A stretch of 64,000 bases of DNA, taken from Naegleria gruberi. Taxonomy: Eukaryota. Positions within the stretch are counted from its first letter, which is position 1. Each line of letters starts with the position of its first letter. Location of the stretch: the NCBI GenBank assembly GCA_000004985.1, contig GG738901.1; one strand, 5' to 3'. Under the pieces are notes generated by a model that was not told where the DNA came from, searched no databases, and saw only the letters and a list, made by a program, of their open reading frames with translations. The position numbers and the translations under genes were made by a program. Shown here one piece after another: positions 5,531 through 63,422 of the stretch.

Positions 5531-7618
5531 ATGGCAGATTTCGAACTGGAGATTGGTGAACCTGTCCATGACGTGGCTGAGCTCATTGCATGGATAGATG
5601 CGTGTGATCTCATCAATGATGATGAAGAGGAATCAACAAATGCTCCGAACGATCATTTACAGCACTCATCAAGTGTTCAAAATTATGATTTTCTCTTGAT
5701 TGGCTCGAAAGCATTGAAGAGTCATTGGCAAGAATTAAATAATTCAACAATGATGGTGATGAAGGAATCTTTGGCCAAACATTCTGGATTTGGAAAGAAA
5801 ATTATCAAGAATCATGTTGATCACCGTTTTGAGAAGGACTCGGATTGGGATTTAGTTTGTCTGAATAAGAAAGCACTGATGGAATTCTTGAAGAATGAAG
5901 AGATTGAGGAGATTTGTGTTAATTATATTGTACAATTGGAGGATTTTGAAGTGAGTGAGAATGATTATTGTGAATGGATGAACATTGGTGGTCAACCAAC
6001 GAGATGGAAAGAGTTTTCGCTTCGTTTAGAAATGAAGAATGGATTAATTATTGAGATTGAATACTGCACTCATCAATATCACCTGTTAAAGTATTTGAAT
6101 TCAAAGAAGATTAATAATGTGAAAGTTCCATTCATGAATGAGTTCAATTGTGCTCTTGCTCCTCTCGAATTGTTGGAAATTATCAAAAGATCTCATTTAT
6201 TCTTTAATATTCTTAACGATTCCTGGTTGAAGCACTTTCTTGATATAGAAATGATTCATTTGATTCAAAAAGTATCGGAAACTCACGATGTCTTATACTT
6301 GGGCACAGCTTTTGAAGATAACGAGCTCATTTGGTTAGTTTATTACGACAGGCTTACAAAACGAATTGTAAAAATGGCTCAAGATGAACAGGATTCGTAT
6401 GATAATTATATTGACATATACTGTTTCAATATAAGGGAGGAAGAGATCCGTCATGTTGCTCGTGATGGTTATTCAGAAAGTTTATTTTCTGTTTTTGGAG
6501 TGAATGAAATTCAATTAAATCCATCATTTTTGGGAGACAGCTCCCAATCTATTGAGTACATGTCTCAAGCTATAGCTGGAAACATTCTCAAAACAAGTAT
6601 ATTCCGTGTGGTCAACTCTGAAGAATTGGAAAAGTTGATCCTCAAATCAATGCAAAAAGCACTTGATTATAATTACAAGACCTATCTGTTTATGATTATT
6701 ATTGAAGTGTATTGGAAGATTTCTGAGAGAATATTTGACATGCTCCATCAACCCGAAAGACTTGAAGCATTATTTAACACTAAGACTGAAATGTTAGAAT
6801 TTAAATTCAAGAATTATCCAATTGATTTGGAGAAGGATGATGTGAAGGATATTTCACATCTGAATGGTCTCTATATTTGCAGTCATTACTTGCCAATTCA
6901 TTTAATTATGAATATCATATCATATTCCCATTCAGCTAGTGATATTATCCATCTTACTCAATTGGACAAGAGTTGGAATCAAATTTTTGAAATTCAGGAT
7001 GTCTGGAAGTATTTGTATTTCAGCAGATATCCTACTCCATCCCAATACTATTCTGTGAAATCTACTTTCCAAGCAAAGAGTTGGAAATTGCAAGTCCTAG
7101 CCAGATCCAAATTGAATAGAATTCCACTACTGTCCAGTCAAGGATGTAAGGGACTTGCCGAAGTATTCAAGAGCAAGTTTATTGGAAAATCAGAAGCTTT
7201 CAAACAATTCATTTCTGATTTTTATGCAAACACTTACATTGTGAGCAAGAAGGAAGTTAATAATTCTTCTGATGAATCCAAAACCTTAAAAGCAACTTTA
7301 ATGATTTTCTGGCCAAGACAAGCTCCACTCCAGGTTGACTTGGAAGTTTATCTTGATTATGCTGAGTACAGATCTGGAGATAGTAAAGGAGGTTTCGGTA
7401 GCAGAGAGAAGGTCACAGTTAGATACTTGGGAGGAAAGAGCTCATATTATTCAAATCAACCTTTAATTCTCAGGTCAATCACCAACCCTGAAGACTTTAT
7501 TGGAAGGTACTATCTTTCAATATTGAGTCAACAACAATATGCTTCTCTATTTTCAACTTTGGCAGTTTTAGGATTTGGAAAGAATTGGACAAGTGAAGTG
7601 TTGGGTTATTCGTGGTAG
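5531..7618 (+). CDS. Hypothetical protein, 695 aa, with an acidic N-terminus
   Basis: Uninterrupted ORF. The ATG has an A-rich Kozak-like context (aaaaaaATGg). I recognise no domain. Confidence 0.55.
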   Translation: MADFELEIGEPVHDVAELIAWIDACDLINDDEEESTNAPNDHLQHSSSVQNYDFLLIGSKALKSHWQELNNSTMMVMKESLAKHSGFGKKIIKNHVDHRFEKDSDWDLVCLNKKALMEFLKNEEIEEICVNYIVQLEDFEVSENDYCEWMNIGGQPTRWKEFSLRLEMKNGLIIEIEYCTHQYHLLKYLNSKKINNVKVPFMNEFNCALAPLELLEIIKRSHLFFNILNDSWLKHFLDIEMIHLIQKVSETHDVLYLGTAFEDNELIWLVYYDRLTKRIVKMAQDEQDSYDNYIDIYCFNIREEEIRHVARDGYSESLFSVFGVNEIQLNPSFLGDSSQSIEYMSQAIAGNILKTSIFRVVNSEELEKLILKSMQKALDYNYKTYLFMIIIEVYWKISERIFDMLHQPERLEALFNTKTEMLEFKFKNYPIDLEKDDVKDISHLNGLYICSHYLPIHLIMNIISYSHSASDIIHLTQLDKSWNQIFEIQDVWKYLYFSRYPTPSQYYSVKSTFQAKSWKLQVLARSKLNRIPLLSSQGCKGLAEVFKSKFIGKSEAFKQFISDFYANTYIVSKKEVNNSSDESKTLKATLMIFWPRQAPLQVDLEVYLDYAEYRSGDSKGGFGSREKVTVRYLGGKSSYYSNQPLILRSITNPEDFIGRYYLSILSQQQYASLFSTLAVLGFGKNWTSEVLGYSW

Positions 7619-9756: not shown

Positions 9757-12315
9757 ATGTATTCACATAGTAGTAGCAATAATAATAACAATGTTAATGG
9801 GGGTGGTAGTTTGTTTTCTCCGAATAGTGTAGCATCATCAACACCTACAACACCATCTTCTCCTTCCATCATGATGAGTCCACCACCATCATCATCACAT
9901 CATCAACAACACCATCAGCATCACCATAATCATCATCATCTTCACCATTCAACTCTTCCACCATTAAATTCATTTCATAATTATACTGCTGGAGTGATGC
10001 AACATTTTGATGGTTTTCATGGAGGTTCTGCAACCTCTCCTTATGGTTCTCCTTCGTTCTCTCTACCTACAACACCTACATCAAACTATGGCCTTGGAAA
10101 TGGTCAATCATCGGTAGGCATTGCATCACCTCTTCCAAATGTATTGCATTCGCCTTCTTCAGTGGGGACATCTCCACAACTCAACAATGGATCGAATGTC
10201 ATGGTCAACAAACCATCAACTTCAGCCTTTGGTAAAGTTTCTACAGCTCCAACCCCTAGTGAAATTGTACCAAATTTTGTCATTGACCAAGTGAGTAAAA
10301 TTACGAATAGAGATGAATATGAACCAATCAGTCACGAGAATTTAATGTCAATAAGAAAGAGCAAGATTATTTCACCAAATAATGATATTTCTAAAAGTAA
10401 GAATCAATCTACTTCAGAGGATGAGGACTATGATGATGATGGATCAGATTCTGCACAAAAAACAAAATCCGATAAGAAGAAGTACCACCCTATTGCCTGT
10501 GTGCAGTGCAGGTCTTTACACAAAAAGGTTTGTTTAGTTTCGAATAATGCATTCTAACTCGGAAAAGTGTGACAAGAAATTACCTTCATGCTCAAAATGT
10601 ATTTCTAGAGGTGTGGAATGTACAGTATGTAGTTATATTGTTTTGGATTTATTGGAATTTCTAATCAATTGATAATAGTATAATACCCCAAGAAAGAGAG
10701 GAAAAGTCTCTAGAAAGGACACTGATAAAACTGATGTAAATAATGTTAATAACAATACTAATAATAACATGAATGGAAACTCATCCATGAACCAATCAGG
10801 TATTCCACCTTTTGTGAGGACTGAAAAACCAAATAACCATCTTCCTCCACCATCAGTGATTGATTCATACTTTGCAGTTTTATGTGGTGGCCATCCAGCC
10901 ATTGAAAAGAAAAAGCTAGAATATACTGTTCAAAATAATTACTCCTATATTAATGCACTCCTAGTGACGAATGACTACAATGTGAGGTTACCAATACCTG
11001 AAGGAGAAAATGCAGAGACAACATTTATTCTTGCCTTTTATTTATCCATTCAAGCTCTGTATGTTTTTTGATAATAATTTTAACAATGTTCAAACAATTT
11101 TAATTCAGATGTGAACAGCGATATGGGTTGTTGGATCTTGCTGAAGAATCCCACAAGCATGCGGAGAAGGAAGTTGCCAGATTGATAGACCACTTTACAA
11201 ACTTTTACATGGTTGCTTGTTATATCAATATGGCACTGTATGAATCAGGTGGTGGAAATTACAAAAAGGCAAGATTTTACTTGAACAATGTGAATTTTTA
11301 CTTTGAGGATGAGGAGAATATGAATAAGGATTTCAACTTTTACGAGCAAAATTTGAAAAAGTTTAGAGTATTTGTTGTTGGATCATGCCATTCGGATATT
11401 GATAATATTGGATCGTTGGGCACGTTTGTGGAAATGATGCCTCGAATGTTTAAACTGGCTTCTGGAGGACAAGATATGCAACTTCCTCCAGAATGTTGGC
11501 AAGTTTTCAATTCTAGGAACGTCACCCCCGATAATTACATGCTTTTCATGCAAATTATGGATATGGTGTCTAAAGCATTCGAAAAATATAGAGCTATCCT
11601 TTATGGTATGGCAACGGATTGTCACTCTCCAACATTCTTCAGATTCCAAGATTTACAAAGGGCCTTCATTAACAATGGTATTAGATTTTTACTATTGGAG
11701 AAGGTTGTCAATGTGGCCTCAAACTTTGCTGAAGAAACCGCTCTGAAAATTACACTTCTCACAGAACATGACCTGTTCCCGTAAGTATTTCACTTTTACA
11801 ATCTAATAATCCTCCGAAAATGAAGATATTGTGGACTTGGAGTCATTCTAGGAATAATTAATACTTGTAAATTTCATTTAAACATTGTGAAACAAATAGA
11901 GAGTGGAATGCGACCAACACATTCAACAATCATTTCATCAGCAACTAATAAGGCAATAACAGTTGACTACTTTTCCATTTTACAGAAGGATTTAAGAGCA
12001 TTACAAGTACTTGCAAAGAGATATAAGAGACTAACCCTCTACCACTCTCAAATGATGGATGAAATGGAACAAATCATTAGAAGAAAGCACAATGTCGATC
12101 CATTCCACACAGCTCTTCAAATCCAAACACTCTCCAATATGGCACCACCAGTACAGACAGGAACAGGCACTGATAACCCTAATGATGTTCTCCTATCAAC
12201 CATATTGGGCTATTTGAAGAAGGCAATCGAGAGTAATCAAAATCCACCTCCTTTCGCAGCAAACATGAGTCCTGTAAATGAAACACGTGCTGATTTTGGT
12301 TTTCCATGGGAATAA
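9757..12315 (+). CDS. Zn(2)-Cys(6) binuclear-cluster (Gal4-type) transcription factor. Five exons: join(9757..10527, 10568..10625, 10701..11058, 11109..11780, 11904..12315)
   Basis: The motif ACVQCRSLHKK | CDKKLPSCSKCISRGVECT is a perfect CX2CX6CX6CX2CX6C only after removing a 40-nt intron (10528-10567) that contains an in-frame TAA. Further introns keep the frame into a fungal-type transcription-factor middle region: GTATGT..AG 10626-10700, GTATGT..TTCAG 11059-11108, and GTAAGT..AG 11781-11903. The N-terminus is His/Gln/Ser-rich. Confidence 0.6.
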
Positions 12316-12471
12316 TGACCTCTCACCCTCAATAAATCCGTGATCAACATGGCTATGTTGTAATGACTACAGTATGGAACATCATGTTGAACATGTGAAA
12401 CTGTTCCATCTAGTTCCACAACCAGCAAGATTATCTCTACAGCTCACACAACTTTTACCACATCAAAAAAA

Positions 12472-13494
12472 ATGTCATCCTCATCAGCATCTTCCGAATC
12501 AAAGTTTGCAATTCTAGTCATTGACAGTGAACAAAACAATTGGGATTTGCTCTTCTCCGAGAATAATCTTCTCACCAAATATAATTTAGAAATTGAACAA
12601 ACCACGTGGGAGAATATTGCCTCTGTCACCTCCTTCAATGATGGAAATAATAAGAAGAGAGCATGTGAAATATCGTTGAGACCTTGGAAAACAACTTGTA
12701 CATTCAATGATCGTAGGAATAGACAACGAATTTTCCATGCTAATTTTGTATTGGTTAGGAAATTAGTTCAGGGATTGAAAATTGATCAACATAATTATGT
12801 CAATCACTTGTTGGGAATGATGCATTGTAATTTGCCTTCTATCAATTCATTGCATTCAATTTATTTGAATTTACAAAGACCATTCATTCATGGAATTTTA
12901 TCTGGAATTAGAGATGAGAAGGGAGCTGATAAATTCCCTCTCATTGATCAATATTATCATGGTGAACCAAATTCCATTCTTTTCACACCTTCATCCTCTG
13001 ATAAGGTTGTCATTAAAGTTGGAAGTGCAGAAGCTGGATTTGGAAAAGTACTCTTGGATAACAATAATGGAACATTACGTGATTTTGGAGGATGCATTAC
13101 GAGATATAATGATTTTTTCACAAGTGAACCTTTTATTGCCAATAGAAAGTGTGATATCAGATTGCAAAAGATTGGAAAGAATATTAGAGTTTATGAAAGA
13201 GTGAGTTCTAATTGGAAAGGCAATGTTGGAAATTCAATTCTTAAAGAAGTGGAAGTGAAAAAGCATTATAAGGAGTGGATTAAATGGGTTGATGAAGCTG
13301 TCAAGTCCAAAATGGGAAGTCCAATGGAAATTTTCACACTCGATGCCATTCAAGTTGAACCAGAACCTGGCAAGTTTGTAGAATATATTTTGGAGATCAA
13401 TGATTGTGCCAGTGGTCTAGCTCCAGATAATTTACAGGAGGATATTAGAAATATTAGAGATTTGGTAATTTCAAAAATTAGTGATCTCGTTTAA
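12472..13494 (+). CDS. Synapsin-like ATP-grasp protein (synapsin C-domain homologue)
   Basis: The 340-aa ORF aligns along the synapsin C domain: ILVIDSEQNNWDLLF, NFVLVRK, LPSINSLHSIYLNLQRPFIH, DKFPLIDQYYHGEP, KVVIKVGSAEAGFGKVLLDNNNG, SEPFIANRKCDIRLQKIGKNIRVYER, and EYILEINDCASGL. Confidence 0.65.
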   Translation: MSSSSASSESKFAILVIDSEQNNWDLLFSENNLLTKYNLEIEQTTWENIASVTSFNDGNNKKRACEISLRPWKTTCTFNDRRNRQRIFHANFVLVRKLVQGLKIDQHNYVNHLLGMMHCNLPSINSLHSIYLNLQRPFIHGILSGIRDEKGADKFPLIDQYYHGEPNSILFTPSSSDKVVIKVGSAEAGFGKVLLDNNNGTLRDFGGCITRYNDFFTSEPFIANRKCDIRLQKIGKNIRVYERVSSNWKGNVGNSILKEVEVKKHYKEWIKWVDEAVKSKMGSPMEIFTLDAIQVEPEPGKFVEYILEINDCASGLAPDNLQEDIRNIRDLVISKISDLV

Positions 13495-13681: not shown

Positions 13682-14451
13682 TTATTTAGCAATTCTAGAA
13701 GCAGCAGCTGCGTAAGAAGCAATAATTGCAATGATAATAATGGCTGCAACAACAACTGACAAGATATTAAGTCCTAAAGTAATGAAAAATCCAATTTGTC
13801 CATATTGTCCATATTGTTTAGCTCTTGGATCTGATGAACGACGGAATTTCATAACTGGAACAAAGAAGAAACAACTGAAACAGAATCCAATTCCAAGGAA
13901 CCACATGACAAATGTCACTAACAAGGCAAACATTAAAGCTTCTTCAGCTTGTTTGCCTTCTCCAACTGCAGAAACACCATTCACAACAGTTGTAGTAGTT
14001 GTGGTGGCAACAGTTGGTTGAGCTACGATCACAGGTTGTGGAGTGTAGTATTGTGGTTGTGGTTGACCATAAGCTACAGGTACCTGTTGACTTGGATCAT
14101 AGTATGGTTGTTGTGGATATGGTTGACCATAGGCATTTGGTTGAGTTGGTTGACCATAGTATGCTTGTGGTTGTTGTTGATTTGGATCATATTGAGGAGG
14201 AGGTTGAGCATAGGTAGCTTCTTGCTTTACGTTAGGATCCTATCATTATTAGTAGTATTCGAAACATGTAAAATTTCATCACAACATCACGTTTTGAACA
14301 TTAGTTTTTAAATGTTGCATGTGTTGTTATTATCCAAACATTATTATCATTTTTGTATGTCATTTCCAAATAGTTTCGGTTAGATTTTAAAGTTTAGAAT
14401 AAACATTGTTCATAACAAAATTGCACTACCTACCACTGGTTGTTGATTCAT
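13682..14451 (-). CDS. Small Pro/Gln/Tyr-rich protein with two C-terminal transmembrane helices (dispanin/CD225-like?). Two exons: join(14434..14451, 13682..14239) on the minus strand
   Basis: Exon 1 is ATGAATCAACAACCAGTG followed by a GTAGGT donor. A 194-nt AT-rich intron (14240-14433) ends in GATAG. Exon 2 encodes YGQP/YPQQ repeats, then two hydrophobic segments separated by KFRRSSDPRAKQ. Confidence 0.5.
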
Positions 14452-17401: not shown

Positions 17402-18655
17402 ATGGTTCACGTGAACGATTTTTTACTAACAAACATCATCCCTTCAGCTCTAACAAACCTATTCGAAACTTCTTCTCTCACACCGAATGTAACTTTTATG
17501 CAAACTTGTGTGAGATTTGATCCAGCAGGTTTCGAATATGTTGGCTGGGTATGGGATATTTTCGGCGAATGTGTCCACGAACCAAGAGAAATAGCTTCCT
17601 TTGCAGTTGGCATGATTTCCATTGGATTTTGGATGTGTGCTCTCCTGCCACAAGTCATTGCGAATTTCAAAAATAGAGATGCCTCCTCCCTGTCAACTGG
17701 CTACTTGATACAAATCACTTTGGGTGATGCCTGTTCCATGACAGCTGGTATCATGAGTGGTCAATTGATTACTCAAATTTTATTGAGTGCTTACTTTGTA
17801 TTAATGGACGTTGTAATGATTGCTCAATATTTTTGTTTTGTGGTCATTCCAAAAATTTATAGAAAAGTCAAATCGAGGAAAATTCAACCTGAAAAAAATC
17901 AAGAAATTGCAAATTCTCAAAGTGAATTGGTGAATAAGGAGAAGGTTGAGGTAAAATGTGAGAATTCAAAGCAGCAGGAAACAATTTTGAAGAGTTCGAT
18001 TTGGATTTCAATTTTGGCAATTTTAGTATTGATTACATTCTTTACAACTTCAACAATGCTTTCGAATAATGTTGAGAATGCACAGAAAATGAATCAAAAA
18101 ACAATGAGAAAACTATTGCATGCCATTAATGAAGGACAAGAATACTCAACCACTCAACAAGATCACAACAGTTTCACCTTCCCTCCAAACACTCCAGTTT
18201 CCATTGTTGGTTTCTCATTGGGTTGTTTCTGTGCCATTCTCTACATGGGCAGTAGATTACCTCAAATCTTTTTGAATTTCAGAAGAAAAACATGTGATGG
18301 TCTCTCACCTATTTACTTTGGAATTGGTATTTTAGGAAATGTTTGTTATTGTGTTTCGATTTGGTTGTACTCTTCAGATTCGGCTTATTTAATGACACGT
18401 ATTCCTTGGTTAGTGGAATCGACTGTAAATATATTTTTGGATATTTTCATCATGTGGCAATTTGTGTATTACAATTACTTGTATAAGGGAAAGAAACCAG
18501 AAAGTAAGGAAGTAAAGAATAAGAAAGTGGAAGAATTGAAAGTTGTTTCTGCCATGAGTACAGTTTCAGATACTTCTCCAAAGGTGAATGCTCCAACAAA
18601 TGATGATTGGTCATCGAGTTCAACTTCTGCGAGTCCAAAGGAACAAATTGTGTAA
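17402..18655 (+). CDS. PQ-loop repeat transporter (PQLC2/Ypq-like lysosomal cationic amino-acid or cystine transporter family)
   Basis: Two PQ-loop motifs sit in predicted transmembrane regions: CALLPQVIANFKNR and GSRLPQIFLNFRRK. There are about 7 TM helices and a lysine-rich loop. Confidence 0.7.
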   Translation: MVHVNDFLLTNIIPSALTNLFETSSLTPNVTFMQTCVRFDPAGFEYVGWVWDIFGECVHEPREIASFAVGMISIGFWMCALLPQVIANFKNRDASSLSTGYLIQITLGDACSMTAGIMSGQLITQILLSAYFVLMDVVMIAQYFCFVVIPKIYRKVKSRKIQPEKNQEIANSQSELVNKEKVEVKCENSKQQETILKSSIWISILAILVLITFFTTSTMLSNNVENAQKMNQKTMRKLLHAINEGQEYSTTQQDHNSFTFPPNTPVSIVGFSLGCFCAILYMGSRLPQIFLNFRRKTCDGLSPIYFGIGILGNVCYCVSIWLYSSDSAYLMTRIPWLVESTVNIFLDIFIMWQFVYYNYLYKGKKPESKEVKNKKVEELKVVSAMSTVSDTSPKVNAPTNDDWSSSSTSASPKEQIV

Positions 18656-30820: not shown

Positions 30821-33800
30821 TTAAGCATCCACAACGGTTGAAACTTGGTTACAAGATTGATCGACAATTTCATTCATGGTTGATGATAAATCAGTCCAGG
30901 AAACTGTCATGGCTCTCGCTGGATCATAATTCATTCCTCTAATTTGTCTAGCACCCCAAGTGTTGGACATGGCAGAACCAACGGCCATAGCCACAATTTT
31001 CTATAAAAGGAAAATTAAAAATTTATCAAAATAGGAAATATTCAAAAATTAATGAAAATAAAAAATAAAAACATACCCATTGGACCTTATTATTTCCATT
31101 GTAAGGATTATCCAAATCATATGGAACAACTCCACTAGCATTACGTTTCCAACTATTAATCTTTTGAGCTGCAGGAAGAGCATCAGCACATGGCAAACAA
31201 TAAGCAGATTTGGAAGTACTACAATAATCACATTGAGTTCCATTGAGAACTGATGTATCATTATACTTGTAGGCACAAATATCATTCAATTGAGTGTTCA
31301 AAGCAGAACCAGTGTACTTGTTCAAGATATTGGTTTGGATAGAGTTGGAGAAGAGACTTGGTCTTGCTTGGTATTCATTTCTACAATCACCACATGAACA
31401 TGGAACGTTGGCAACACCATCAGTCAAAACTATTGTAAAATAAATTGAAAAATTATTTGTAAGAAATTGTAAGGGTGAAAAAAAACTTACTGAAAATAAC
31501 CTTATCAGCATCATCTCTACCTCCATTGGCAGGTCTCAAAGCATCTACAGCAACTCTCAATCCAGGAATAGTTCCAGTTGAAGAGGCTTCATAAGCCATA
31601 TTAGTTAAGGTATTATTAATTGTTGTTCCGTCATTCGAAAGTTTCAAAGCAAGTGTTGCATTCGAGTGGAATCTTACAATGGAAACCAATATGGAATCTG
31701 ATGAGATGGACATTCTTCCTGTAATTTGTTTACACAAAGTTCTCATTGAATTATAATTGGTTGTACCAATTGACCCAGAAGCATCAAGTAAAAAGACAAA
31801 GTCAATCTTGGCAGTGCAGTAACAATTCTTGAATTCAATGTAGACAGTTGCGTTTCTAGAGACGTTGAATGAAGTGATCATTGTGTATTGGAATTTATCT
31901 GCTTGACAGGTTGTGGTGTCAGAATCAACTTCGATAGCAGCAACTCCATTAACTGTCACTAATCTTGGAGTCTTGTGACAGTAATTGGAATTTGGACAAG
32001 AAATTGAGGTTAATTTCAAGGTAGTATTTGAACCAAATTCATCAATATCATTTTGGAGAATTTGCCAGACGTAGATTCTAATAGTTTGTCCTTGATTAAT
32101 TTCAAATCTGTCATCATTGGCAGTTGGTGTTGATGGTGACAAGACAAATGTAATGACAGCAGTATCAACTCCATTAGTTGGTAAATTGTTATCCGAAACC
32201 TTAACATTCATTGTACAAGTTCCAGTAATGACAGTTGGCAATCTTGTAAAAGTGACAACTCCAGAAGTAGAAATAGTCAAACTTGACACAATTGAGCCAC
32301 AACTATGACCAGTTTGACTGAAAGTCAACACATCAGAACCATCAGCATCTGTGGCCGTATAACCAAAAGTATGGACATTGCTCGTAGCAAGTGGAACCAC
32401 CGTAAAAGTCACATCATTTGCAACCGGAATTTGATTATAAATATTAACAGTCACTGAACAGGCACTGCTACTCGTAGCTTGAGAATCGGTGCTAGTGTAA
32501 GTGACTTGGAAAGTTCCACTGTTAGTGGATGAAGCTTTGAAAACAGTTCCTGTCAAGGTGCCAAATGTTGAAGAGATGGAATTGGTAATGGTGTTGGTGA
32601 TTGGATCATTGTTGGAATCGGTGGCGCTGAATAAGGTGGCCAAGTCAATTGAACCTTTCTTTAACAAGTCAATTGAGCTTGAAGAACAGATTGGAGCAGA
32701 ATTGAGGAAAGTGACACTGAATGTGAGATTTGATGTACTGTAATGAAGACCATCGAATAATCTGAATTGAATTGTCTTGAGACCAAGGATGAGTTTGTTA
32801 CTGGTGGTCAATCTGATACCAGTTCCAATATTAGAAACTGTAATACTTGAATCAGAAGAAACGAAATTGGTATAAGAAATGGAATCTCCATCAGCATCTG
32901 AAACTGTGGCAATTTGAGCCCAAGTGAAATCATAAGTAGAGGTTGTGTAATCTCTGTCAATTGATGTGGATTTTCCAGTACCTGTTGGAGCATTGTTAGT
33001 GACAGTTACAGTGACAGTTCCTGGATTATTGGCAGTTAACATACCATCAGTACATTGGAATTTGAAAGAACCTGTAGCAGAGTAAGCACCATTAGAACCA
33101 GTAAAGGTTAAAGAAGTTGCAGAAGGAGTATAACTAACAATCTTATTCGAAACTGAAACACTTCCACCAACAACACTTGAAGTAGCTCCATTGAAGTAGG
33201 CAGTATCCAATGAATCAGAATCAGTACAAGCACCTGATGATAAATCCACAGAAACAGATGATTTCCATTTGGTAGTTGCTGTCTTGTCAACACATTGTGG
33301 AGCATTGTCATAAACATTGACATTTACAACAGTGTTGCTATTTTCAAGGGATTGAGCACCATCTGTGAATTTATAGGTGACAACATCAGTTCCAATGTAG
33401 GTTCCCGGAGCATTGTAAGTAATGGTTGAAGTTCCAACTGAAACTGAACCCTTTTGAGCTGATGCACTAACAAGTGACAAGTTGTCATTATCTGGATCTT
33501 TCAAAGAAGGTGCAAATGTTGCGAATGGACTCAAGGTAACACCAGTTTCCTTCCAGTGAACATTCTTTGAGCTTGCAACTGGAACTGACATGTTATTATA
33601 AACAGTGACATAAACTGTACCTGGAGTTGACACAATTGAATCACTAGCTCCATAAGTGAATGAGAAAGTTCCCAAATAAACAGATGAACCAGCAGTAGCA
33701 ACAGCATTTGGTGAAGTTGGCATAGCAATAGATCCAGCCCCGGATGGAGAAACACTAGATACTTGAACTGAATAAGTTAATGCATTTCCTTCAACATCTG

Positions 33801-36800
33801 TTACTCCAGTACTCATGTCCATTTGATAACCCGTCTTGTGAGTAGCCCAGTGGACATTGAAATATTTGGTGTTGGTTACTGGAGCAGTATTAGTCATGGT
33901 GAATGTGACTGAGAAAGTAACTGTGGCCAAACCATCAGTTGCAGTTACCTTAAAAGAGTCTGGACCGACATATTTGGTAGGAGCAGTGTAAGTGATTGAA
34001 CTGCCAGTTACTGCAGAGACAGACCCCAAAGTTGATGAGCTATCAACGCTCTTGACTGTTCCCTTTGTTTCTCTACCAGCAGAATAATCATCATCAACAT
34101 AATTAGTTAACAAGTCAACTGTCTTTGAGCCTCCCCAATTAATAAATTGAGTAGCAAGACTGGCAGTTGGCACATTATTGTAAGTAGTAATAGTAACAGA
34201 AACAGTACTATCAAGACCAGTATCAGTAACAGTTACAGTGAACGTATCAATGTACAATTTTCTCAAAGGAGTAAAGTAAATCTTTCCACCTGACAAGGTG
34301 ACAGTTGGATTAGAAGTGGAACCAATTGCCTTAATAGTTGAAGTTGGCAAGTTAGTCAAGATTGGAACTTCATAATTGTTGGCATTCCAGTGGACATCAT
34401 AACTTTGATCATAATTTGAAGAGCTCAATGAACTGACAACAATGTTAATGTAACAAATTGATGAAGCTGTCAAACCATCAGTGACTGTGTAAGCATAGGT
34501 ACGAGCACCAATGTTTGCGTTTGGTTTAAAGTTCAAATATGCACCAACTACAGTGAAAGAATCACCAGGATAGGAATTTCCAATAATTTGAGCAGTTCCA
34601 GGAACTAAATATGGAATATCATTGGAATCTGGATCAGTAACTGATGATGAAATTGAATAGTTTTGACCACTTGTAACATAGATTGGTTTGAATGAAACGG
34701 TCATGTTTGAACATGTTGGTGCACTGTTTGTAATGGTCAATTGAGCAGTTTTACTTCCAGATGAAGCCAAACCATCAGAAACTGAGAATGAGCATGAGGC
34801 TGTACCAAGAGTATTAGGTGGAGCTGTAACTCTAACCTTTGGAACAGTGTCACTAGTCTTTGAACAAGAAGCTCCAGATAATCCTGAAGCAGTTGGATTG
34901 ACAGTCAAAGTAAGAGAATCACCATCATTGTCAGTTGTCTTTGCCATGACAGTGAAATCTTGATTAAGAGATTGAGACAACAAAGTTCTCCAATGAACAG
35001 AAGTAGCAACATTTGAAGCACTTGGTACATCATTATTAGTAAAACCAACGTTAACAGTAATTGTATCAGATTGTGAAACAGTGTCAGTAATAACATATTG
35101 GAAAGTATCAGCCAATCCATTCTTCTTGGCAGTATATTTAACAGAAGATCCACTAACAGAAGCAGCAGTACTTCCACTAACAGAGTAGAGTGAGATTGGA
35201 TCTCCATTTGGATCCATGTCATTGTCCAAAACTGAGAACAAGGTTGCAGGAGCAGCCCAATGGAGAGTGTATGATTCACCTGTACCAACTGGTTTAGTAT
35301 TGGTCACTTGAACGTTGACAGTTCCTTGAGTTTTCTTATTGTAATCATAAGCATAGTAAGTGAATGACTTTGAACCAACAGTGGCAGAGACAGTGTTTGG
35401 AATAAATTTGATAGTCTTGGAATCTGACAAGGTGACAGTTCCAACAGAGGAGTCAGCTGTAGTAGATTCTAAGACAAGAGCATCACCATCTGGATCACTA
35501 TCATTGGACAATGGATTAACCAAGACACCACTAGGATTTCTCCAGTGAGTTGTGATGGAATCATCAACAGTGACAGGAGCGTTATTGTTGACAGTAATAG
35601 TGACAGTAGCAGAGTTGGAATCAGCATTAGCAGAACTTCCATCATTTAACTTGTAAGTGAAAGAATCAGTTCCAACAAAACCATCAGTTGGTGTGTATCT
35701 GACAACACTTCCCAATACAACAACAGAACCATGAGTTGGATTTGTGGTAATGTGAACAGTGGATGTGGTCAAATCACCATTCTTATCAGAATCGTTATCC
35801 TTTACAGAGCAATCAACTGATCTATTCCACAATGTGGAGTAGGAATCATCAACAGCAACAGGAGCATCGTTAACAACTTGTAAAGTAACTGTAGCTCTAT
35901 AAGTTGAAGTCAAACCATCTTGATGGGTGACATCATAGGTCAAATAATCAGTATATTCAGCATTAGAAGCAGCATATGACAAAGTATTCTTAGTGCCAGG
36001 TACAATAGTAGCTTGAATATTCTTAATTGTAGAAGCAGAAACAAAGTTTACAATAAATACTGAACCAAGACCATCGTTTGGATCAGAATCATTATCCAAA
36101 ACATTCAAAATGGAAGTAACACCCTTTGAAATCTCGAATGTATCATCGGCAGGAGTTGGTGGATTATTGATAACAGTAACAGTGAGCTTTCCCTTTGAGA
36201 AACTTGTTGGATCAGCATTACCATTAGCATCAAGACTTTGATCAGAAATTACATATTGAGCAACGTCAGTTCCCAAGAAACCATTTGGAGCTGAGTAGAG
36301 AGCATGTGTTTCATTGAAGAGGGTCAAACTTCCTCCATTCAATGTTGTGGAATTCCAACCAACACTTGACAAGACGATCTTTGCAGTGTCACCACTGTTG
36401 ATATCATAATCATTGGCAACGAGATTGACATAAACTTGAAGATTCTTATTACATTCGGCAAGGTCATCAACTGCAACAGGTGGAGTATTGACAACGTTGA
36501 TGGTGATTATACCACTTCCTGTACCTTCACCATCTGACATGACAACAGTGAAAGTTTGAGTGTAAACTTGATTGGAAACTGGTGTGAAAAGGATAGTGTA
36601 ATTGTTTGTTTCAACACTAAGCCAATCACAACAATCAAAGAAAATATTGACATAATTAGTAGTCTTTTGTAAAGAAGAAGAAACAGATGCAAGAGAAGGA
36701 GTGATTGTACTTGGAACGATCAAATCCTTTCCATCTGCATCATAATAATCAATAGTAATTGAATTATTAGTGGATGACTTGGCAACAGTGACAGTTTTAG

Positions 36801-37999
36801 AATAGACAACTGGATTTTGATTGTAAACTGAGATTACAACAATACCAGATGAAGTAGCAACACCATCTGAAATGGTATATTCAAACGAATCAGAATATTT
36901 GGTATTGACACTACCACTTGTAATGTAAGTAATCTTCTTTTCACCAACATTGATAGCACCATAACCAGTACCCAAAGCACTTGTAATATTGAAATCATCA
37001 CCATTGATATCATAGTCATTAGCCAAAACATCCAAAACCAATGAACGGAATTTAGGAATTCTGTAAGTATCATCAACAGCAATTGGAGGATCGTTGGAGA
37101 CAGTGACAGTAATTATAGAGCTCGAAGTGTCATAGCCATCAGAAATGGAATAGGCAAATTGTTCAACACCATTGAAACCATATGCAGGAGTATAATAGAA
37201 ACCATTAGCTGGATCAACAGAAATTGAACCAGTTTCAGCACTATTTCCACTAACAATAGTTTGATTAGTGAAAGAAACTGCTTGAATTAAATCACCATTA
37301 TCTGGATCATTAATCTTCTCATCATTATCACCAACATAATCAAAAATGTTGATTACTGAATTCTTGGCATTCTTACTGACAGTTACACGAATAGGAACGG
37401 CTTCTGGTGGACGATTCAAAACTTGAATAGTAACAGATGCATTTGCTGTCTTGTAACCATTAGTAATTTGATAACTGAAAGTGTCATTTCCAGCAAAAGT
37501 ACCATTTGACTTGTAGAGAACTTGACTATTGGACTGAATTGAGGCTGAACCATGATTTGGATAGACAACAAATTGAACCAATGAAATGTTTGCTCCTTTA
37601 GGATCATAATCATTGGAAAGAACATTGATGGTCAATGGAATATTCTTGTAGGTGGAAGCTAAATCATTGACAGCAACTGGTCTTTGATAGGAAATCAAGG
37701 ACACCATCAAGATGGTGGCTACTGTGGAAGCAATAACCAAACCAGAGATGATAGCACCAATCTATTTGGTTTTTTAGAATATGCGAAAGATTATTCGAAA
37801 CTTACGATTGTTTGACTAATAGTACCTCCTTTCTATTAAATAGGTTAGAGCGCAAGTGGAGTTTGAAATATTTCATTGTTATTTTTCGACATTATTCACA
37901 TATTATCCACATGGATTGTCAACTGACACTTACTAATAACGAAACGTTGAAACCAAGAGATTGCTTGGACGCAGTTGAAGATCCAATAATTTCTGGCAT
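30821..37999 (-). CDS. Giant adhesin-like protein: a signal anchor, about 18 tandem ~100-aa Ig/cadherin-like (VCBS-type) repeats, and a C-terminal vWA domain. Five-exon model on the minus strand: join(37934..37999, 37806..37832, 31491..37761, 31077..31429, 30821..31000)
   Basis: The 6.3-kb ORF holds repeats of the form NxPVAVDDxY...YTP..GFxGxDxFxYxxxDG...A.VT.V. The vWA motifs DFVFLLDASGSIG and ILTDGVANVP are joined across a 61-nt GTAAGT..AG intron (31430-31490). The last exon is joined across a 76-nt GTATGT..ATAG intron (31001-31076). The main ORF opens directly after an acceptor AATAG and lacks an ATG. Two small upstream phase-0 exons are proposed: MPEIIGSSTASKQSLGFNVSLL and KGGTISQTI. Confidence 0.6.
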
Positions 38000-39079: not shown

Positions 39080-42000
39080 ATGTCTCAAGAAAACGATAAT
39101 ATCGAAGTTGGTGACGAAAGCCAACGTCGTCGTAGAACAGCTCGTGGTGGCGCTGGTGCTGGAACCAAATCAGCAGCTTCAGCAACTCTCTTTACAAAAC
39201 TTGTTGATGCTCAATCAGATGAAAGTAACTGGAAAGTTTCAGGTGCCAACTTTATGTGGGTACCATGTAATGGTGAAGCACTTAATGCTTTCGAAGTTGG
39301 TGAAATTAAAGAACGTAAAGGAAAGGAAGTTGTTGTTGAAACAGAATCAGGTGATAAGAAGACACTCCCAATTGAAGAAGTTTTCCCAATGAATCCTCCA
39401 AAATTGACAGGTATTGAAGATATGGCTAGATTATCCCATCTGAATGAACCTTCTGTGCTTTTCAACTTGAAGAAGCGTTATGAAAGTGATAAAATCTACA
39501 CATACTCTGGTCTCTTTTTAGTTGCCGTCAATCCATACAAGAATTTACCAATCTATACTGATGAAATCATCAAGAAGCATAATGGTAAGAGACGTGAAGA
39601 TGCTGAACCACACGTTTTCACAGTTGCAGATGTTGCTTATAGACAAATGTTACAAAATCAATTGAATCAATCCATGTTGGTTACAGGTGAATCAGGTGCT
39701 GGTAAAACTGAAAATACCAAGAAGATTATCCAATATTTGACTGCTACAGCTGGTGCTTCACATGGTGCTGGTAAATTAGAAAACCAATTGTTGCAAACCA
39801 ATCCATTGTTGGAAGCTTTTGGTAACGCAAAGACACTTCGTAATAATAACTCATCTCGTTTTGGTAAATTCATTGAAGTTGACTTCAATGTAAGTGGTTA
39901 TATTGCTGGTTGTAAGATTCAACACTACTTATTAGAAACAACAAGAGTTACTGCTCAAGCTGGTGATGAAAGAAATTTCCACTTCTTCTATCAAATCCTT
40001 TCTGATGCTCAAGCTAGAAACAAGTATCACTTGACTAATGTTAACAGTTATGCCTATGTCTCTCAATCTGGTTGTACTTCTGTTCCAGGTATTAATGATG
40101 CTATGGAATTCCAAGAAACATTGAAGGCCATGCGTATTATTGGTATCAGTGAAGATGAAATTGATGCTACTTGTAGAATTGTTGCTTCAATTCTCCATTT
40201 GGGTAATTGTAAATTTGTAAAGGATGATGAAGATTTATCCATGTTACCAGAACGTTCACCACTCAATACTGCTTCTGAATTATTGTGTGTTGATCCAGAA
40301 GGTTTGGCAAAGGGTTTCATGAAGCCAAACATTATTACTCCAACTGATATCATTGAAACTCACGTCAATGTTGCTCAAGCTGGTTTCAATAGATCTGCTT
40401 TAGTCAAGTCAATGTATAATCGTTTGTTCGACTGGTTAGTTCGTTCCATTAATCAATCTTTGACATCAAAGGAAAAGATTAAGAACTTTATTGGTGTCTT
40501 GGATATTGCTGGTTTCGAAATCTTTGAATTGAACAGTTTTGAACAATTGTGTATCAATTATACTAACGAAAAGTTGCAACAATTCTTCAATCACCATATG
40601 TTCAAGAAGGAACAAGAAGAATACTTGAAGGAAAAGATTGAATGGAAGTTCATTGATTTTGGTTTGGACTTGCAACCAACTATTGACTTGATTGAAAAGC
40701 CATTGGGTATCTTGGCTATTTTGGACCAACAAACTTTCATGGCTCAACAATCTGAAGAAGGTTTGGTTCGTGAAATTAACAAGAATCATGGTACTAAGAA
40801 ACAATTCAAGACTTCTCGTTTCAATGAAAAGGAATTCATCCTTTCTCACTATGCTGGTGATGTTCCATACAATGTTGTTCAATGGTTCACTAAGAACGTT
40901 GATCCACTCAATGAAGATTGTAAATCAACTATGATTGCTTCTGGTAATACTTTGATTAAATCACTCTTTGATGTTCCAGGAGAAAGAACCAAGGCTAATG
41001 AAAAGAGATCTGTTGGTAGTGCTCGTTTCAAGACTGTTGCTACAAACTATAAGAATCAATTGAAGGATCTTATGGGATTGTTAGAATCAACTGAACCTCA
41101 CTTTATCCGTTGTATCAAACCAAACAATTTGCAAAAGCCAGCTATCATTGATGATCGTCTTGTTTTGCATCAATTGAAATGTAACGGTGTCTTGGAAGGT
41201 ATTCGTATTGCTCGTAAGGGTTATCCAGGTCGTATTCCATATGCTGAATTCGTCAAACGTTATGATTTGTTGGTTGAAGATAAACGTTCTTTGGAACAAC
41301 AACCAAATCTCCGTGGTAAGGCTCAAGTCATTCTTGATTCTATCAAGTTTGAAGAAACCACTCAATATAAATTGGGTGCCACAAAGGTCTTCTTGAAGGC
41401 CTCACAAGAAGCTCTCATTGAAGAATATCGTGAAGCTCAAATTTCAAAGATTATTGGTGTTGCTCAAGCTGCTGCTTTAGCCGCTTATGAAAGAGTTGCT
41501 TATAAGAAGTTGCAAGGACGTTTGGTTTCTATCAAGTTGATCCAAAGAAACTTCCGTGCCTACTTGAAGCTCAAGAATTGGGGTTGGTGGCAATTAATTA
41601 ACTTGACTCGTCCATATCTTAAGGAATTCTCAAGTGAACAAGTCACTAAGAAGTTGAAGGAAGATTTCGAACAACTCAAGAAGGATCTCGAAGGTGAAAA
41701 GGATTCTAAGAAGAAGCTTGAAACTGAAAAGAATGCTCTCGAACAATCTCGTAAGAAGCTCATTGATGACTTGGAAGAACAACGTAATCGTTTGGATACC
41801 ATGAATAATCACATGAACCAACTCGAAAAGGAGTTGAATGATAGAAAGAGAGAATTGGAACGTTCTCAAAAGGATAACGATGACAAGGACTCTGAAATCA
41901 CTCGTAACACTCAAGCTATTGCTGCTCTTAACCAAGCTCAAAAGAAGCTCGAAGAAGCCATTCGTGATATGAAGAATGAAATTGAACAACGTGAAAAGAT

Positions 42001-47905: not shown

Positions 47906-49131
47906 ATGTCTTTATTCCTCCTTGGTGTTGTGTCCATTGTAGTTATTGGATTCGTGGTCTATTTGTTCAAGTTTAAGAATCAAATCAAGGGTTATCACTT
48001 GACAAATGAAAATGTGACAGGAACCTATCAAGATTTATTCGCACAAGATACCAAAGATACTCATGATAAGAGAAAGAATGCTGGATGGGATGTTGCTGGT
48101 AAATATTATGATATGGTGACTGATTTTTACTTGTATGGTTGGGGAAGATCTTTCCATTTTGCTCCAAGGTTAGTATTTTTGTAAAGTTTTCACATTTTCT
48201 TACATTTTTTCATATGAATTCAATGAAATGCATGCTTTTCATTATGATACTTGACTGTGTCTTTTTGGAATATTGTGGACATGTGTACAGACACAAGAAG
48301 GAAAGCATGATTGAATCCATTCAAAGACATGAATACTGGTTGGCCAAACAAATGGATCTCAAAAAGGGAATGAAATGTTTAGATCTCGGTTGTGGAGTCA
48401 TGGGTCCAGCCACCAACATTTCTCGTTTCACAGGAGCTCACATCACAGGTGTCAACAATCATCCTTATCAATCTCAACAAGCCAAAGAATACATTTCACA
48501 AATGGGTCTCTCAGAACAATGTCAAATTGTCAGAGGTGATTTCAACAATTTAGATGACAACTCAGATCTCCCATCTGAATCCTACGATGCTGCCTACACA
48601 ATCGAAGCTTCCTGTCATGCCAAAGATCGTCCACATTGTTACAAACAAATTTACAACAAACTCAAACCAGGTGCAATTTTTGCAGGTTACGAATGGGTCA
48701 TGATTTCTGGAAAATATGATTCGAAAAATGAAGAACATAACAAGATTAAATTTGACATTATGAAAGGAGATGGTTTACCAGAAATTCTCATGGATAAGGA
48801 GATTGATGAATCATTGAGAAAGGCAGGATTTGAAGTTATCAAAACTGAAGATGTAGGTGTCACTGATCAAATTCATCCAGTGCCTTGGTATCAACCAATT
48901 GACAATGGTGGTTGGGATTTTACAAGTTGGTTCCAAACTTCATATGGAAGATTTATTGTTCACAAATTGGTTGGAATTTTGGAAAGTGTTGGTTTAGTCC
49001 CAAAATCTTCACAACAAGCTTATGAATTTTTGATGGCTGGAGCTAGTGGATTGGTTGCTGGTGGAAAGACTGGAATTTTTACACCTTGTTATTTCTTTAT
49101 GGCTAGAAAACCATTAACTGCTGCAGAATAA
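47906..49131 (+). CDS. Sterol 24-C-methyltransferase (ERG6/SMT1 family). Two exons: join(47906..48168, 48291..49131)
   Basis: Exon 1 ends ...GWGRSFHFAPR. A 122-nt GTTAGT..ACAG intron follows. Exon 2 continues HKKESMIESIQRHEYWLA...LDLGCGVMGPA...YEWVM, aligning along ERG6 including the SAM-binding motif. Confidence 0.85.
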
Positions 49132-62507: not shown

Positions 62508-62591
62508 TTTTTAGGCTTGGGTTTTTAGGCTTGGGTTTTTAGGCTTGGGTTTTTAGGCTTGGGTTTTTAGGCTTGGGTTTTTAGGCTTGGG
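62508..62591 (+). repeat. Six tandem copies of a 14-bp telomere-associated variant repeat, TTTTTAGGCTTGGG
   Basis: Direct reading shows six exact units. They sit immediately proximal to the canonical TTTGGG array. Confidence 0.9.
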
Positions 62592-62897: not shown

Positions 62898-62947
62898 NNN
62901 NNNNNNNNNNNNNNNNNNNNNNNNNNNNNNNNNNNNNNNNNNNNNNN
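62898..62947. other. Assembly gap (50 N)
   Basis: Run of n characters. Confidence 1.
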
Positions 62948-63420: not shown

Positions 63421-63422
63421 AC

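What the first reader, a model, noticed from the sequence alone, without database searches (positions are those of the whole stretch)
12472..13494. A synapsin-like ATP-grasp protein in a unicellular, amoebozoan-like genome
The 340-aa product aligns along the whole synapsin C domain, including the ATP-grasp fold and the nucleotide-binding segments. It lacks the A, B, D and E domains.

Synapsins are regarded as neuronal, metazoan proteins. Stand-alone C-domain homologues outside animals are rare and poorly characterised. A conserved, compact copy here suggests an ancestral ATP-grasp enzyme that metazoan synapsins were built from. Alternatively it may have a vesicle- or cytoskeleton-related role in the amoeba.

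Its start lies only about 156 bp downstream of the Zn2Cys6 factor gene.
Basis: partly seen in the sequence, partly recalled or inferred. Interest (0 to 1): 0.6.

Follow-up and report, generated by a model that had tools for sequence, protein, structure and literature searches.

The report
Second synapsin-like ATP-grasp gene in Naegleria
This is a real, intact gene for a stand-alone relative of the animal nerve-terminal protein synapsin, but it sits in the amoeboflagellate Naegleria gruberi, where such proteins were reported in 2010, so it is a mis-annotated second copy of a known protein family and not a new discovery.

Summary

The context is wrong. The window is Naegleria gruberi NEG-M (Heterolobosea, Discoba), not an amoebozoan.

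The rarity claim fails. Candiani et al. 2010 already reported stand-alone synapsin C-domain proteins in N. gruberi and Entamoeba. Named homologues exist in seven amoeboid genera. A profile search finds 378 clusters at E<=1e-30, and at least 108 lie outside the animal clade.

Three things are new.
- This gene is a second paralogue, only 34% identical to the published copy (AM20). It groups with Willaertia and Acrasis proteins.
- GenBank hides it inside a 797-aa chimeric model (NAEGRDRAFT_52582) fused to the upstream Zn2Cys6 gene.
- Non-animal members strictly keep the canonical ATP-grasp metal triad (D291, E308, N310) and R230, which animal synapsins have relaxed.

The gene is under purifying selection (6 synonymous, 0 non-synonymous differences). 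It most likely binds Mg-ATP and is plausibly an active ligase. Its function is untested.

The parts
12472..13494 (+). Complete single-exon CDS of the stand-alone synapsin-family (C-domain) ATP-grasp protein, 340 aa plus stop
12499..12840 (+). N-terminal lobe (residues 10-123), Pfam PF02078 Synapsin
   Evidence: 50.4 bits, profile positions 4-103 of 103.
12844..13482 (+). ATP-binding lobes (residues 125-337), Pfam PF02750 Synapsin_C
   Evidence: 116.5 bits, profile positions 1-202 of 203.
13015..13017 (+). Codon of K182, the ATP-binding lysine (equivalent to K269 in human SYN1 and SYN2 as numbered in the Candiani sequences; rat SynII K270 by recollection)
   Evidence: Invariant in all 142 aligned family members. 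Codon read directly.
13036..13047 (+). Glycine-rich phosphate-binding loop G189-F-G191-K192 (SynI G276-M-G278-K279)
   Evidence: G189, G191 and K192 are invariant or nearly invariant in every clade.
13213..13230 (+). Core of the 'multifunctional loop' W248-K249-G-N251-V-G253 (SynI W335-K336-T-N338-T-G340)
   Evidence: W and K are invariant; N and G are near-invariant. Loop residues 330-343 are defined in PMC9678998.
13342..13401 (+). Metal-binding strands: D291 (13342-13344; SynI E373), E308 (13393-13395; SynI E386) and N310 (13399-13401; V388 in SynI, M388 in SynII)
   Evidence: D, E and N are >=95% conserved in 108 non-metazoan representatives. In animals D is replaced (0% D) and N is kept in only 44%. 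E373 and E386 as Ca2+ ligands: PMC9678998.
12316..12471 (.). 156-bp intergenic spacer and 5' leader. It is not coding, although the JGI model reads 12414-12471 as protein.
   Evidence: Eight substitutions plus 2-nt and 3-nt indels against L001, including 6 substitutions in 12439-12449, compared with 6 silent changes in the 1023-nt ORF. In-frame stop at 12388-12390.
9757..12315 (+). Separate upstream multi-exon gene for a Zn2Cys6 (GAL4-type) protein. The finger is split by a 40-nt intron (10528-10567). The last intron is 11781-11825 (45 nt) and the last exon is 11826-12315.
   Evidence: The spliced finger CX2CX6CX6CX2CX6C gives Zn_clus 39.4 bits. GTAAGT donor and in-frame 45-nt intron. The last exon shows 2 synonymous and 1 non-synonymous change against L001. 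No homologue lies upstream of the orthologues in L002, L003 or L004. The 5' limit was not verified.

Best explanation
What it is. Window 12472-13494 is an independent, functional, single-exon gene of Naegleria gruberi NEG-M. It encodes a stand-alone member of the synapsin C-domain family of ATP-grasp proteins. It is a second paralogue, distinct from the published N. gruberi copy AM20 (NAEGRDRAFT_66720). It belongs to a clade shared with Willaertia and Acrasis. In GenBank it is buried in a chimeric 797-aa model (NAEGRDRAFT_52582 / EFC39231.1) that wrongly splices it to the upstream Zn2Cys6 gene.

Shown. Family membership and fold, gene boundaries, purifying selection, and conservation of every nucleotide- and metal-binding residue.

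Inferred mechanism. The protein clamps Mg-ATP between its central and C-terminal lobes. K182 and the G189-x-G191-K192 loop would hold the phosphates. E219 would lie at the hinge near the nucleotide. D291, E308 and N310 would chelate the metal ions, with the W248-K249 loop closing over the site. Non-animal members keep the full canonical ATP-grasp triad and R230, whereas animal synapsins have relaxed them. The nearest enzymes by fold are RimK, LysX/ArgX and glutathione synthetase. I therefore think it most likely still works as an ATP-dependent carboxylate-amine ligase acting through an acyl-phosphate intermediate, perhaps on a peptide or protein C-terminus. The substrate is unknown.

Confidence by part. 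About 0.9 that it is a functional ATP-binding synapsin-family protein. About 0.5 that it is catalytically active.
For: Family and fold.

Source organism and annotation: exact matches of flanking ORFs to EFC39230.1 and EFC39232.1; the locus is EFC39231.1, 797 aa; the sequence of the chimera.

Independent gene: there is an in-frame stop at 12388-12390 and the upstream gene has its own stop at 12313-12315. A 45-nt GTAAGT...AG intron completes the upstream gene. The spacer is fast-evolving with out-of-frame indels. Orthologues are 338-428 aa stand-alone proteins. There is no Zn2Cys6 gene upstream in L002, L003 or L004.

Functional: 6 synonymous and 0 non-synonymous differences plus one in-frame indel against L001.

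Paralogy: 34% identity to AM20. The clade of the window protein, Willaertia, Acrasis and four unnamed proteins has 84% bootstrap, and AM20 falls elsewhere.

Active-site conservation.

Against: No enzymatic activity has ever been shown for any synapsin (PMC3249071). Invertebrate synapsins also keep E-E-N, so an intact metal triad does not prove catalysis.

The substrate-side residues of this family are undefined, so they could not be checked.

The window protein has Ser at position 176, where Pro is 96-100% conserved elsewhere.

The orthologue in a related Naegleria-like organism appears to be pseudogenised, so the gene is dispensable in at least one lineage.

No expression data for this locus could be accessed. 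The tree is a simple NJ tree with an unresolved backbone.
Confidence: 0.6

Rival explanations
1. It is a non-catalytic, ATP-regulated scaffold, as animal synapsins are thought to be. ATP (with or without Ca2+) binding would drive dimer or tetramer formation and reversible tethering of vesicles or actin in the amoeba, with no chemistry performed.
For: This is the only function documented for the family. ATP and Ca2+ binding control SynI oligomerisation and vesicle clustering (PMC9678998). Synapsin is listed as an ATP-grasp protein without apparent enzymatic activity (PMC3249071). The multifunctional-loop residues that gate the site and contribute to oligomer contacts are conserved (W248, K249, N251, G253). 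The sister paralogue carries the name AM20, one of the amoeboid-locomotion gene families. All named non-animal holders are amoeboid organisms.
Against: It is hard to see why a pure binding role would hold D291, E308, N310, R230 and G315 at >=93% identity across 108 divergent clusters while the same positions drift in animals. The vesicle- and actin-binding functions of animal synapsins depend partly on domains A, B, D and E, which are absent here.
Confidence: 0.33
2. The GenBank/JGI model is right: the ORF is the C-terminal half of a 797-aa Zn2Cys6-synapsin fusion protein.
For: The deposited model EFC39231.1 / XP_002671975.1 reads through from the upstream gene. All exons share one frame, and an AG lies at 12412-12413.
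Against: The model needs a 633-nt intron that discards a 142-codon open ORF showing coding-like conservation (2 synonymous, 1 non-synonymous). Its 'linker' 12414-12471 carries 6 substitutions in 11 nt between strains, and the spacer has 2-nt and 3-nt indels. The model also skips the exon that completes the zinc finger, so it has no Zn_clus hit. Every orthologue is a stand-alone protein, and none has the Zn2Cys6 gene upstream. A 45-nt intron gives a complete upstream gene with its own stop.
Confidence: 0.03
3. It is contamination, or a recent horizontal transfer of an animal synapsin fragment.
For: Synapsin was found only in animals among the opisthokonts surveyed (PMC7934909). That makes the distribution patchy.
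Against: The gene lies between bona fide N. gruberi genes on a 309-kb contig and has local GC content. It is only 28-34% identical to the animal proteins compared (24% to C. elegans) and lies outside the 98%-supported animal clade. It has orthologues in Willaertia (58%) and Acrasis (46%). No prokaryotic relative was found with two motif patterns across 185,579 species genomes (weak negative evidence).
Confidence: 0.02

Closest known systems
Naegleria gruberi AM20 (NAEGRDRAFT_66720; EFC45496.1 / XP_002678240.1 / D2VCX0), the 'NaegleriaSyn' of Candiani et al. 2010
   Same: It comes from the same organism and has the same architecture: a single synapsin C domain (320 aa against 340 aa), with Pfam Synapsin plus Synapsin_C and the same K, G-x-G-K and D...E-x-N residues.
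   Different: Identity is only 34% and the two fall in different clades. AM20 scores higher on Synapsin_C (170.7 against 116.5 bits) and is closer to animal synapsins (33-40% against 28-34%). It lies on a different scaffold (scaffold_19 in JGI coordinates). AM20 is published, whereas I found no paper that mentions this copy.
Willaertia magna ABK040_005737 and Acrasis kona 'Syn2, partial' (heterolobosean orthologues)
   Same: They share a clade with the window protein (100% bootstrap with Willaertia; 84% for the clade that includes Acrasis). They are 58% and 46% identical, are stand-alone proteins of 362-365 aa, and share subfamily features such as the insert around residues 58-85 and the 'SNWKGNVGNS' loop.
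   Different: The Willaertia gene has one short intron of roughly 47 nt, whereas the N. gruberi gene has none. The neighbouring genes differ.
Entamoeba histolytica EHI_127220 / XP_652171 'Synapsin', with other amoebozoan homologues (Arcella A0A6B2L7J1, Planoprotostelium PROFUN_09664, Pelomyxa 'synapsin II')
   Same: These are stand-alone C-domain proteins of 314-428 aa with the same conserved site residues. They are annotated, and the Entamoeba gene is transcribed.
   Different: Identity is 26-37%. They fall in separate clades and come from a different eukaryotic supergroup.
Metazoan synapsins I, II and III (C domain; PDB 1i7l, 1pk8, 2p0a, 1auv)
   Different: The window protein has no A, B, D or E domains and no PKA/CaMKI site region. 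It lies outside the animal clade. It keeps Asp/Glu/Asn metal ligands and R230, whereas vertebrate proteins have E or K at 373 and V or M at 388, and many invertebrate proteins have His at 315. A role at synaptic vesicles cannot apply in a unicellular organism.
RimK, LysX/ArgX and glutathione synthetase (bacterial and archaeal ATP-grasp carboxylate-amine ligases)

Membership tests
Synapsin family in the broad (Pfam) sense: synapsin C-domain ATP-grasp proteins | Scores above the curated cut-off on both Pfam models that make up the C domain (PF02078 and PF02750) | tested here: met
   50.4 bits (cut-off 23) and 116.5 bits (cut-off 22.5), covering both profiles almost completely.
Synapsin family in the broad (Pfam) sense: synapsin C-domain ATP-grasp proteins | Three-dimensional fold superposes on a solved synapsin C domain better than on any other ATP-grasp protein | tested here: met
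Synapsin family in the broad (Pfam) sense: synapsin C-domain ATP-grasp proteins | ATP-site residues: Lys269 equivalent, Gly-rich phosphate loop, Glu305, Glu386, and Trp335-Lys336 of the multifunctional loop | tested here: met
   K182, G189/G191/K192, E219, E308 and W248/K249 are all present and invariant or near-invariant.
Synapsin family in the broad (Pfam) sense: synapsin C-domain ATP-grasp proteins | Actual binding of ATP, and ATP-dependent oligomerisation | not testable with these tools
   This needs purified protein.
Synapsin sensu stricto (metazoan neuronal phosphoprotein) | N-terminal domain A with the conserved phosphorylation site, plus C-terminal proline-rich and E domains | tested here: not met
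   There is no PF10581 hit, although the vertebrate synapsins all carry it. Only 12 residues lie before the C domain and 1 after it.
Synapsin sensu stricto (metazoan neuronal phosphoprotein) | Phylogenetic position inside the metazoan synapsin clade | tested here: not met
   The metazoan clade has 98% NJ bootstrap and excludes the window protein.
Synapsin sensu stricto (metazoan neuronal phosphoprotein) | Association with synaptic vesicles or actin and regulation of neurotransmitter release | not testable with these tools
   The organism has no neurons. Localisation would need experiments.
AM20 orthogroup (the published N. gruberi synapsin-like protein) | Orthology: the same gene or its closest relative | tested here: not met
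   Identity is 34%. AM20 pairs with P0124 (100% bootstrap) and the window protein pairs with Willaertia (100%). The two are different loci.
Catalytically active ATP-grasp ligases (RimK/LysX/GshB type) | ATP-grasp fold with the acidic-acidic-Asn metal triad and the conserved Lys | tested here: met
Catalytically active ATP-grasp ligases (RimK/LysX/GshB type) | Sequence-profile membership in a characterised ligase family | tested here: not met
   There is no Pfam hit other than the synapsin models at E<=1, and no NCBIfam hit. IMG's label 'glutathione synthase/RimK-type ligase-like' on relatives is a generic automated name.
Catalytically active ATP-grasp ligases (RimK/LysX/GshB type) | ATP-dependent ligation through an acyl-phosphate intermediate | not testable with these tools
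   This needs a biochemical assay.

The most novel reading that the evidence does not exclude
The stand-alone synapsin-family proteins of amoeboid protists, including this one, are active ATP-grasp ligases that covalently modify a peptide or a cytoskeletal or vesicle protein. Animal synapsins would then be their catalytically decayed descendants, which kept only ATP-gated oligomerisation and gained domains A, B, D and E. That would identify the long-missing ancestral enzymatic activity of synapsin. N. gruberi, with two divergent paralogues, and Entamoeba would become tractable systems in which to find it.
Probability: 0.35. Interest if true: 0.7.

Novelty: new member of a known kind. Interest (0 to 1): 0.3.

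Why it matters
The headline claim, a synapsin relative in a protist, has been in the literature since 2010 and in sequence databases for several amoeboid genera. The finding does not change the picture of synapsin origins.

Three modest points have value.
- N. gruberi has two deeply diverged copies, and heteroloboseans share this second subfamily.
- The reference annotation of this locus is a chimera. It hides both a stand-alone synapsin-like protein and a Zn2Cys6 factor, so domain-architecture surveys will mis-score both.
- The canonical ATP-grasp catalytic residues are strictly conserved in more than 100 non-animal clusters and relaxed in animals. This gives a concrete, testable argument that the ancestral protein was an enzyme.

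If an activity were found, it would explain why synapsins bind ATP at all, which is an old unresolved question.

Tried and rejected
- NCBIfam scan: no family hit.
- Exact look-up of the 340-aa product: absent from the collection, because GenBank holds only the 797-aa fusion.
- Word-indexed homologue searches: few protist hits and no N. fowleri hit. The index is too insensitive to read that as absence.
- Fritz-Laylin et al. 2010 (Cell), requested by DOI and by PMID: not held. The meaning of 'AM' was confirmed indirectly through PMC9928731.
- Literature search by locus tags and accessions: nothing found.
- The Acrasis genome paper and the Naegleria pangenome paper: neither mentions synapsin.
- GTDB genome scan with two motif patterns: 27 pattern matches, none confirmed. 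This is weak evidence against close prokaryotic relatives.
- AFDB50 Foldseek, intended to obtain organism names: library not installed.
- Synteny with the Zn2Cys6 gene in relatives: none. I therefore rejected any functional link from the 156-bp adjacency.
- Pseudogene: rejected (intact ORF, 6:0 silent changes).
- Contamination or recent HGT from animals: rejected.
- The special significance I first gave to the 'EIND' motif: dropped once invertebrate synapsins were seen to carry 'EVND' too.

Full report
**1. The observation**

Window 12472..13494 (+) is an uninterrupted 340-codon ORF starting at ATG, with an in-frame stop 84 nt upstream at 12388-12390.

- Pfam. The product scores 116.5 bits on Synapsin_C (cut-off 22.5; profile positions 1-202 of 203) and 50.4 bits on the Synapsin N-terminal model (cut-off 23). 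No other family appears at E<=1, and no NCBIfam family appears.
- Solved structures. The best matches are rat synapsin II (E 9.6e-42; residues 13-339 against chain positions 4-306 of 309), synapsin III and synapsin I.
- Missing domains. Twelve residues precede the domain and one follows it, so domains A, B, D and E are absent.

**2. Where the window comes from**

GC content is about 33-36%. The sterol C-24 methyltransferase ORF at 48139-49131 is 78% identical to Naegleria fowleri and 61-65% identical to Willaertia.

Exact-sequence look-ups settle the source. The ORFs at 5531-7615 and 17402-18652 are identical to N. gruberi NEG-M proteins EFC39230.1 and EFC39232.1, on a 309,005-bp contig. N. 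gruberi belongs to Heterolobosea within Discoba, so the 'amoebozoan-like' label is wrong.

**3. The existing annotation is a chimera**

The locus between those two genes is EFC39231.1 / XP_002671975.1 / NAEGRDRAFT_52582, a 797-aa 'predicted protein'. That model does three things:

- It joins the first exon of the upstream gene directly to a later exon.
- It skips the exon that completes the zinc finger.
- It uses the GTAAGT donor at 11781 with an acceptor at 12413, which reads the 5' leader of the synapsin-like ORF as protein.

Several results argue against the fusion.

- A 45-nt intron (11781-11825) keeps the upstream frame open to its own TAA at 12313-12315.
- The segment discarded by the JGI intron contains a 142-codon ORF. 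Against a near-identical environmental strain (L001) it shows 2 synonymous and 1 non-synonymous change.
- The 156-bp spacer carries 8 substitutions plus 2-nt and 3-nt indels. Six of the substitutions fall within 12439-12449, inside the supposed linker.
- All full-length relatives are stand-alone proteins of 338-428 aa.
- Neither Willaertia nor a Naegleria-like relative has the Zn2Cys6 gene upstream.

With its 40-nt intron (10528-10567) removed, the upstream gene reads ACVQCRSLHKK|CDKKLPSCSKCISRGVEC. This gives Zn_clus at 39.4 bits, and the JGI model lacks that hit. The adjacency is specific to N. gruberi, and I attach no functional meaning to it.

**4. Is the gene functional?**

Between the window and L001, the 1023-nt ORF has six substitutions, all synonymous, and one in-frame 6-nt indel in the N-terminal serine run. 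If roughly a quarter of random changes are silent, six out of six has a probability of about 2e-4. That figure is my own rough estimate. No expression data for this locus could be reached.

**5. What is already known**

- Candiani et al. 2010 (PMC2825198) reported that N. gruberi and Entamoeba histolytica each encode a protein consisting of a single domain similar to the synapsin C domain. They proposed that further domains were added later in evolution.
- Their N. gruberi sequence (JGI scaffold_19:385514-386710) is EFC45496.1 / NAEGRDRAFT_66720, named 'AM20'.
- 'AMs' are the amoeboid-locomotion gene families defined in the N. gruberi genome paper (PMC9928731).
- The Entamoeba protein (EHI_127220 / XP_652171) is annotated 'Synapsin' and is transcribed.
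- Göhde et al. 2021 found synapsin only in animals among the opisthokonts they surveyed, so the distribution is patchy.

**6. This copy is a second paralogue**

- Identity. The window protein is only 34% identical to AM20. AM20 is 33-40% identical to the animal synapsins compared, against 28-34% for the window protein. The divergent C. elegans protein gives about 25% and 24%. AM20 also scores higher on Synapsin_C (170.7 bits).
- Family size. A profile search of 1.84 billion cluster representatives returned 2051 hits at E<=1e-3, 1039 at E<=1e-10 and 378 at E<=1e-30.
- Tree. I built an NJ tree of 142 near-full-length sequences (305 columns, 200 bootstraps).
  - Animal synapsins form one clade (98%).
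  - The window protein pairs with Willaertia (100%).
  - It lies in a clade with Acrasis 'Syn2' and four unnamed proteins (84%).
  - AM20 pairs with a different protein (100%).
  - The Entamoeba type forms its own clade (90%).
  - The backbone is unresolved.
- Non-animal diversity. At least 108 of these 50%-identity clusters lie outside the animal clade.
- Named holders. These are Naegleria, Willaertia and Acrasis (Heterolobosea), and Entamoeba, Arcella, Planoprotostelium and Pelomyxa (Amoebozoa). All are amoeboid organisms.

The family is therefore neither rare nor unannotated.

**7. Anatomy of the site**

SynI residues are from PMC9678998.

| Human SYN1 | Window protein | Conservation |
|---|---|---|
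| K269 | K182 | invariant in all 142 sequences |
| G276 / G278 / K279 | G189 / G191 / K192 | invariant or near-invariant |
| E305 | E219 | near-invariant |
| R315 / Q317 | R230 / Q232 | see contrast below |
| R328 | R243 | conserved |
| W335 / K336 / N338 / G340 | W248 / K249 / N251 / G253 | W, K invariant; N, G near-invariant |
| E373 | D291 | see contrast below |
| E386 | E308 | see contrast below |
| V388 (M388 in SYN2) | N310 | see contrast below |

A contrast between the 108 non-animal and 34 animal representatives is informative. Six positions are at least 93% conserved outside animals but relaxed or replaced within them.

| Window residue | State in animal representatives |
|---|---|
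| R230 | 59% R, often His |
| R239 | mostly Lys |
| D291 | 0% D; Glu, or Lys in synapsin II |
| E308 | 82% E |
| N310 | 44% N, lost in vertebrates |
| G315 | 6% G |

D...E-x-N is the canonical pair-of-metals site of ATP-grasp enzymes. That assignment is general knowledge of the superfamily and was not tested here.

This pattern is what one would expect if non-animal members are still under catalytic constraint and animal synapsins are not. It does not prove catalysis. Invertebrate synapsins keep E-E-N, and no synapsin has a known activity (PMC3249071).

**8. Mechanism**

- Shown: an intact, selected, synapsin-fold protein with a complete nucleotide and metal site.
- Inferred: it binds Mg-ATP, and the W-K loop closes over the site.
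- My preferred reading (about 0.5) is that it still acts as a carboxylate-amine ligase through an acyl-phosphate intermediate. The substrate may be a peptide or a protein C-terminus, because RimK and LysX/ArgX are its nearest enzymatic folds.
- The main rival (about 0.33) is an ATP-gated oligomeric scaffold like animal synapsins. This rival is supported by the AM20 naming and by the family's restriction, among named taxa, to amoeboid cells.

**9. A degenerate orthologue elsewhere**

Two independent assemblies (L002 and L003, differing at 2 of 1150 nt) carry a copy about 69% identical to the window protein.

- A 24-codon deletion removes the glycine-rich loop.
- An in-frame stop replaces the conserved Gly of 'EINDSASG'.
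- There is a frame break near the N-terminus.

It looks like a pseudogene, so this paralogue is dispensable in at least one relative. The organism is unidentified.

**10. Verdict**

The gene and the family assignment are real. The taxonomic context and the claim of rarity are wrong. The central idea has been published since 2010.

Three things are added here: a second heterolobosean paralogue, a corrected gene model, and a residue-level argument for an enzymatic ancestor. This is a new member of a known kind, of modest interest.

Noticed in passing
window 9757-13494 (GenBank EFC39231.1 / NAEGRDRAFT_52582): The reference gene model is a 797-aa chimera of a Zn2Cys6 factor gene and the synapsin-like gene. 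It also skips the 57-nt exon (10568-10624) that completes the zinc finger, so neither protein is correctly represented in databases.
   Followed up: yes
L002 ~334-1420 and L003 ~248-1334 (ENA ERZ2098899 NODE_469; Logan SRR29240419): The orthologue in an unidentified Naegleria-like organism (about 69% aa identity) has a 24-codon deletion removing the Gly-rich ATP loop, an in-frame stop inside the conserved EINDSASG motif, and a frame break. It is probably a pseudogene. This may relate to the absence of any N. fowleri hit in the homologue searches.
   Followed up: partly
window 62508-63999: Perfect (TTGGGT)n arrays lie at 62587-62897 (52 copies) and 63423-63999 (97 copies), preceded by a 14-mer repeat, TTTTTAGGCTTGGG x6. 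The G-rich strand runs towards the window end, GC is 21-25% and GC skew is +0.55. This looks like a chromosome end with a telomere-type repeat and an interstitial block.
   Followed up: partly
window 58088-61803 (-): There are subtelomeric ORFs: one of 348 aa with an RNase H domain (E 1.5e-8), followed by one of 888 aa with no Pfam hit. A long ORF on the opposite strand overlaps them. This may be a retroelement or a low-complexity artefact.
   Followed up: no
window 31453-37740 (-): A 2095-aa ORF is built from about 15 Big_9, 13 Cadherin_4 and 8 Cadherin_5 bacterial-type Ig/cadherin-like repeats plus a C-terminal VWA domain. This is an unusual, bacterial-looking adhesin architecture in a eukaryote and is a possible horizontal transfer.
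   Followed up: no
window 39080-44920 (+): This is a myosin-II-type heavy chain (Myosin_head 872 bits plus coiled-coil tail), 1946 aa in a single ORF. It is relevant to recent work on myosin 2 contractility in Naegleria.
   Followed up: no
window 13682-14032 (-): A small 116-aa ORF lies immediately downstream and convergent to the synapsin-like gene. It is hydrophobic and looks like a membrane protein, has no Pfam hit, and is 100% identical at the protein level in strain L001.
   Followed up: partly
window residue S176 of the synapsin-like protein (12997-12999): The window protein has Ser where Pro is 96% conserved in non-animal members and 100% in animal members. This is the 'FP' just before the ATP-lysine strand. 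It is the only strongly conserved family position at which this copy deviates.
   Followed up: no
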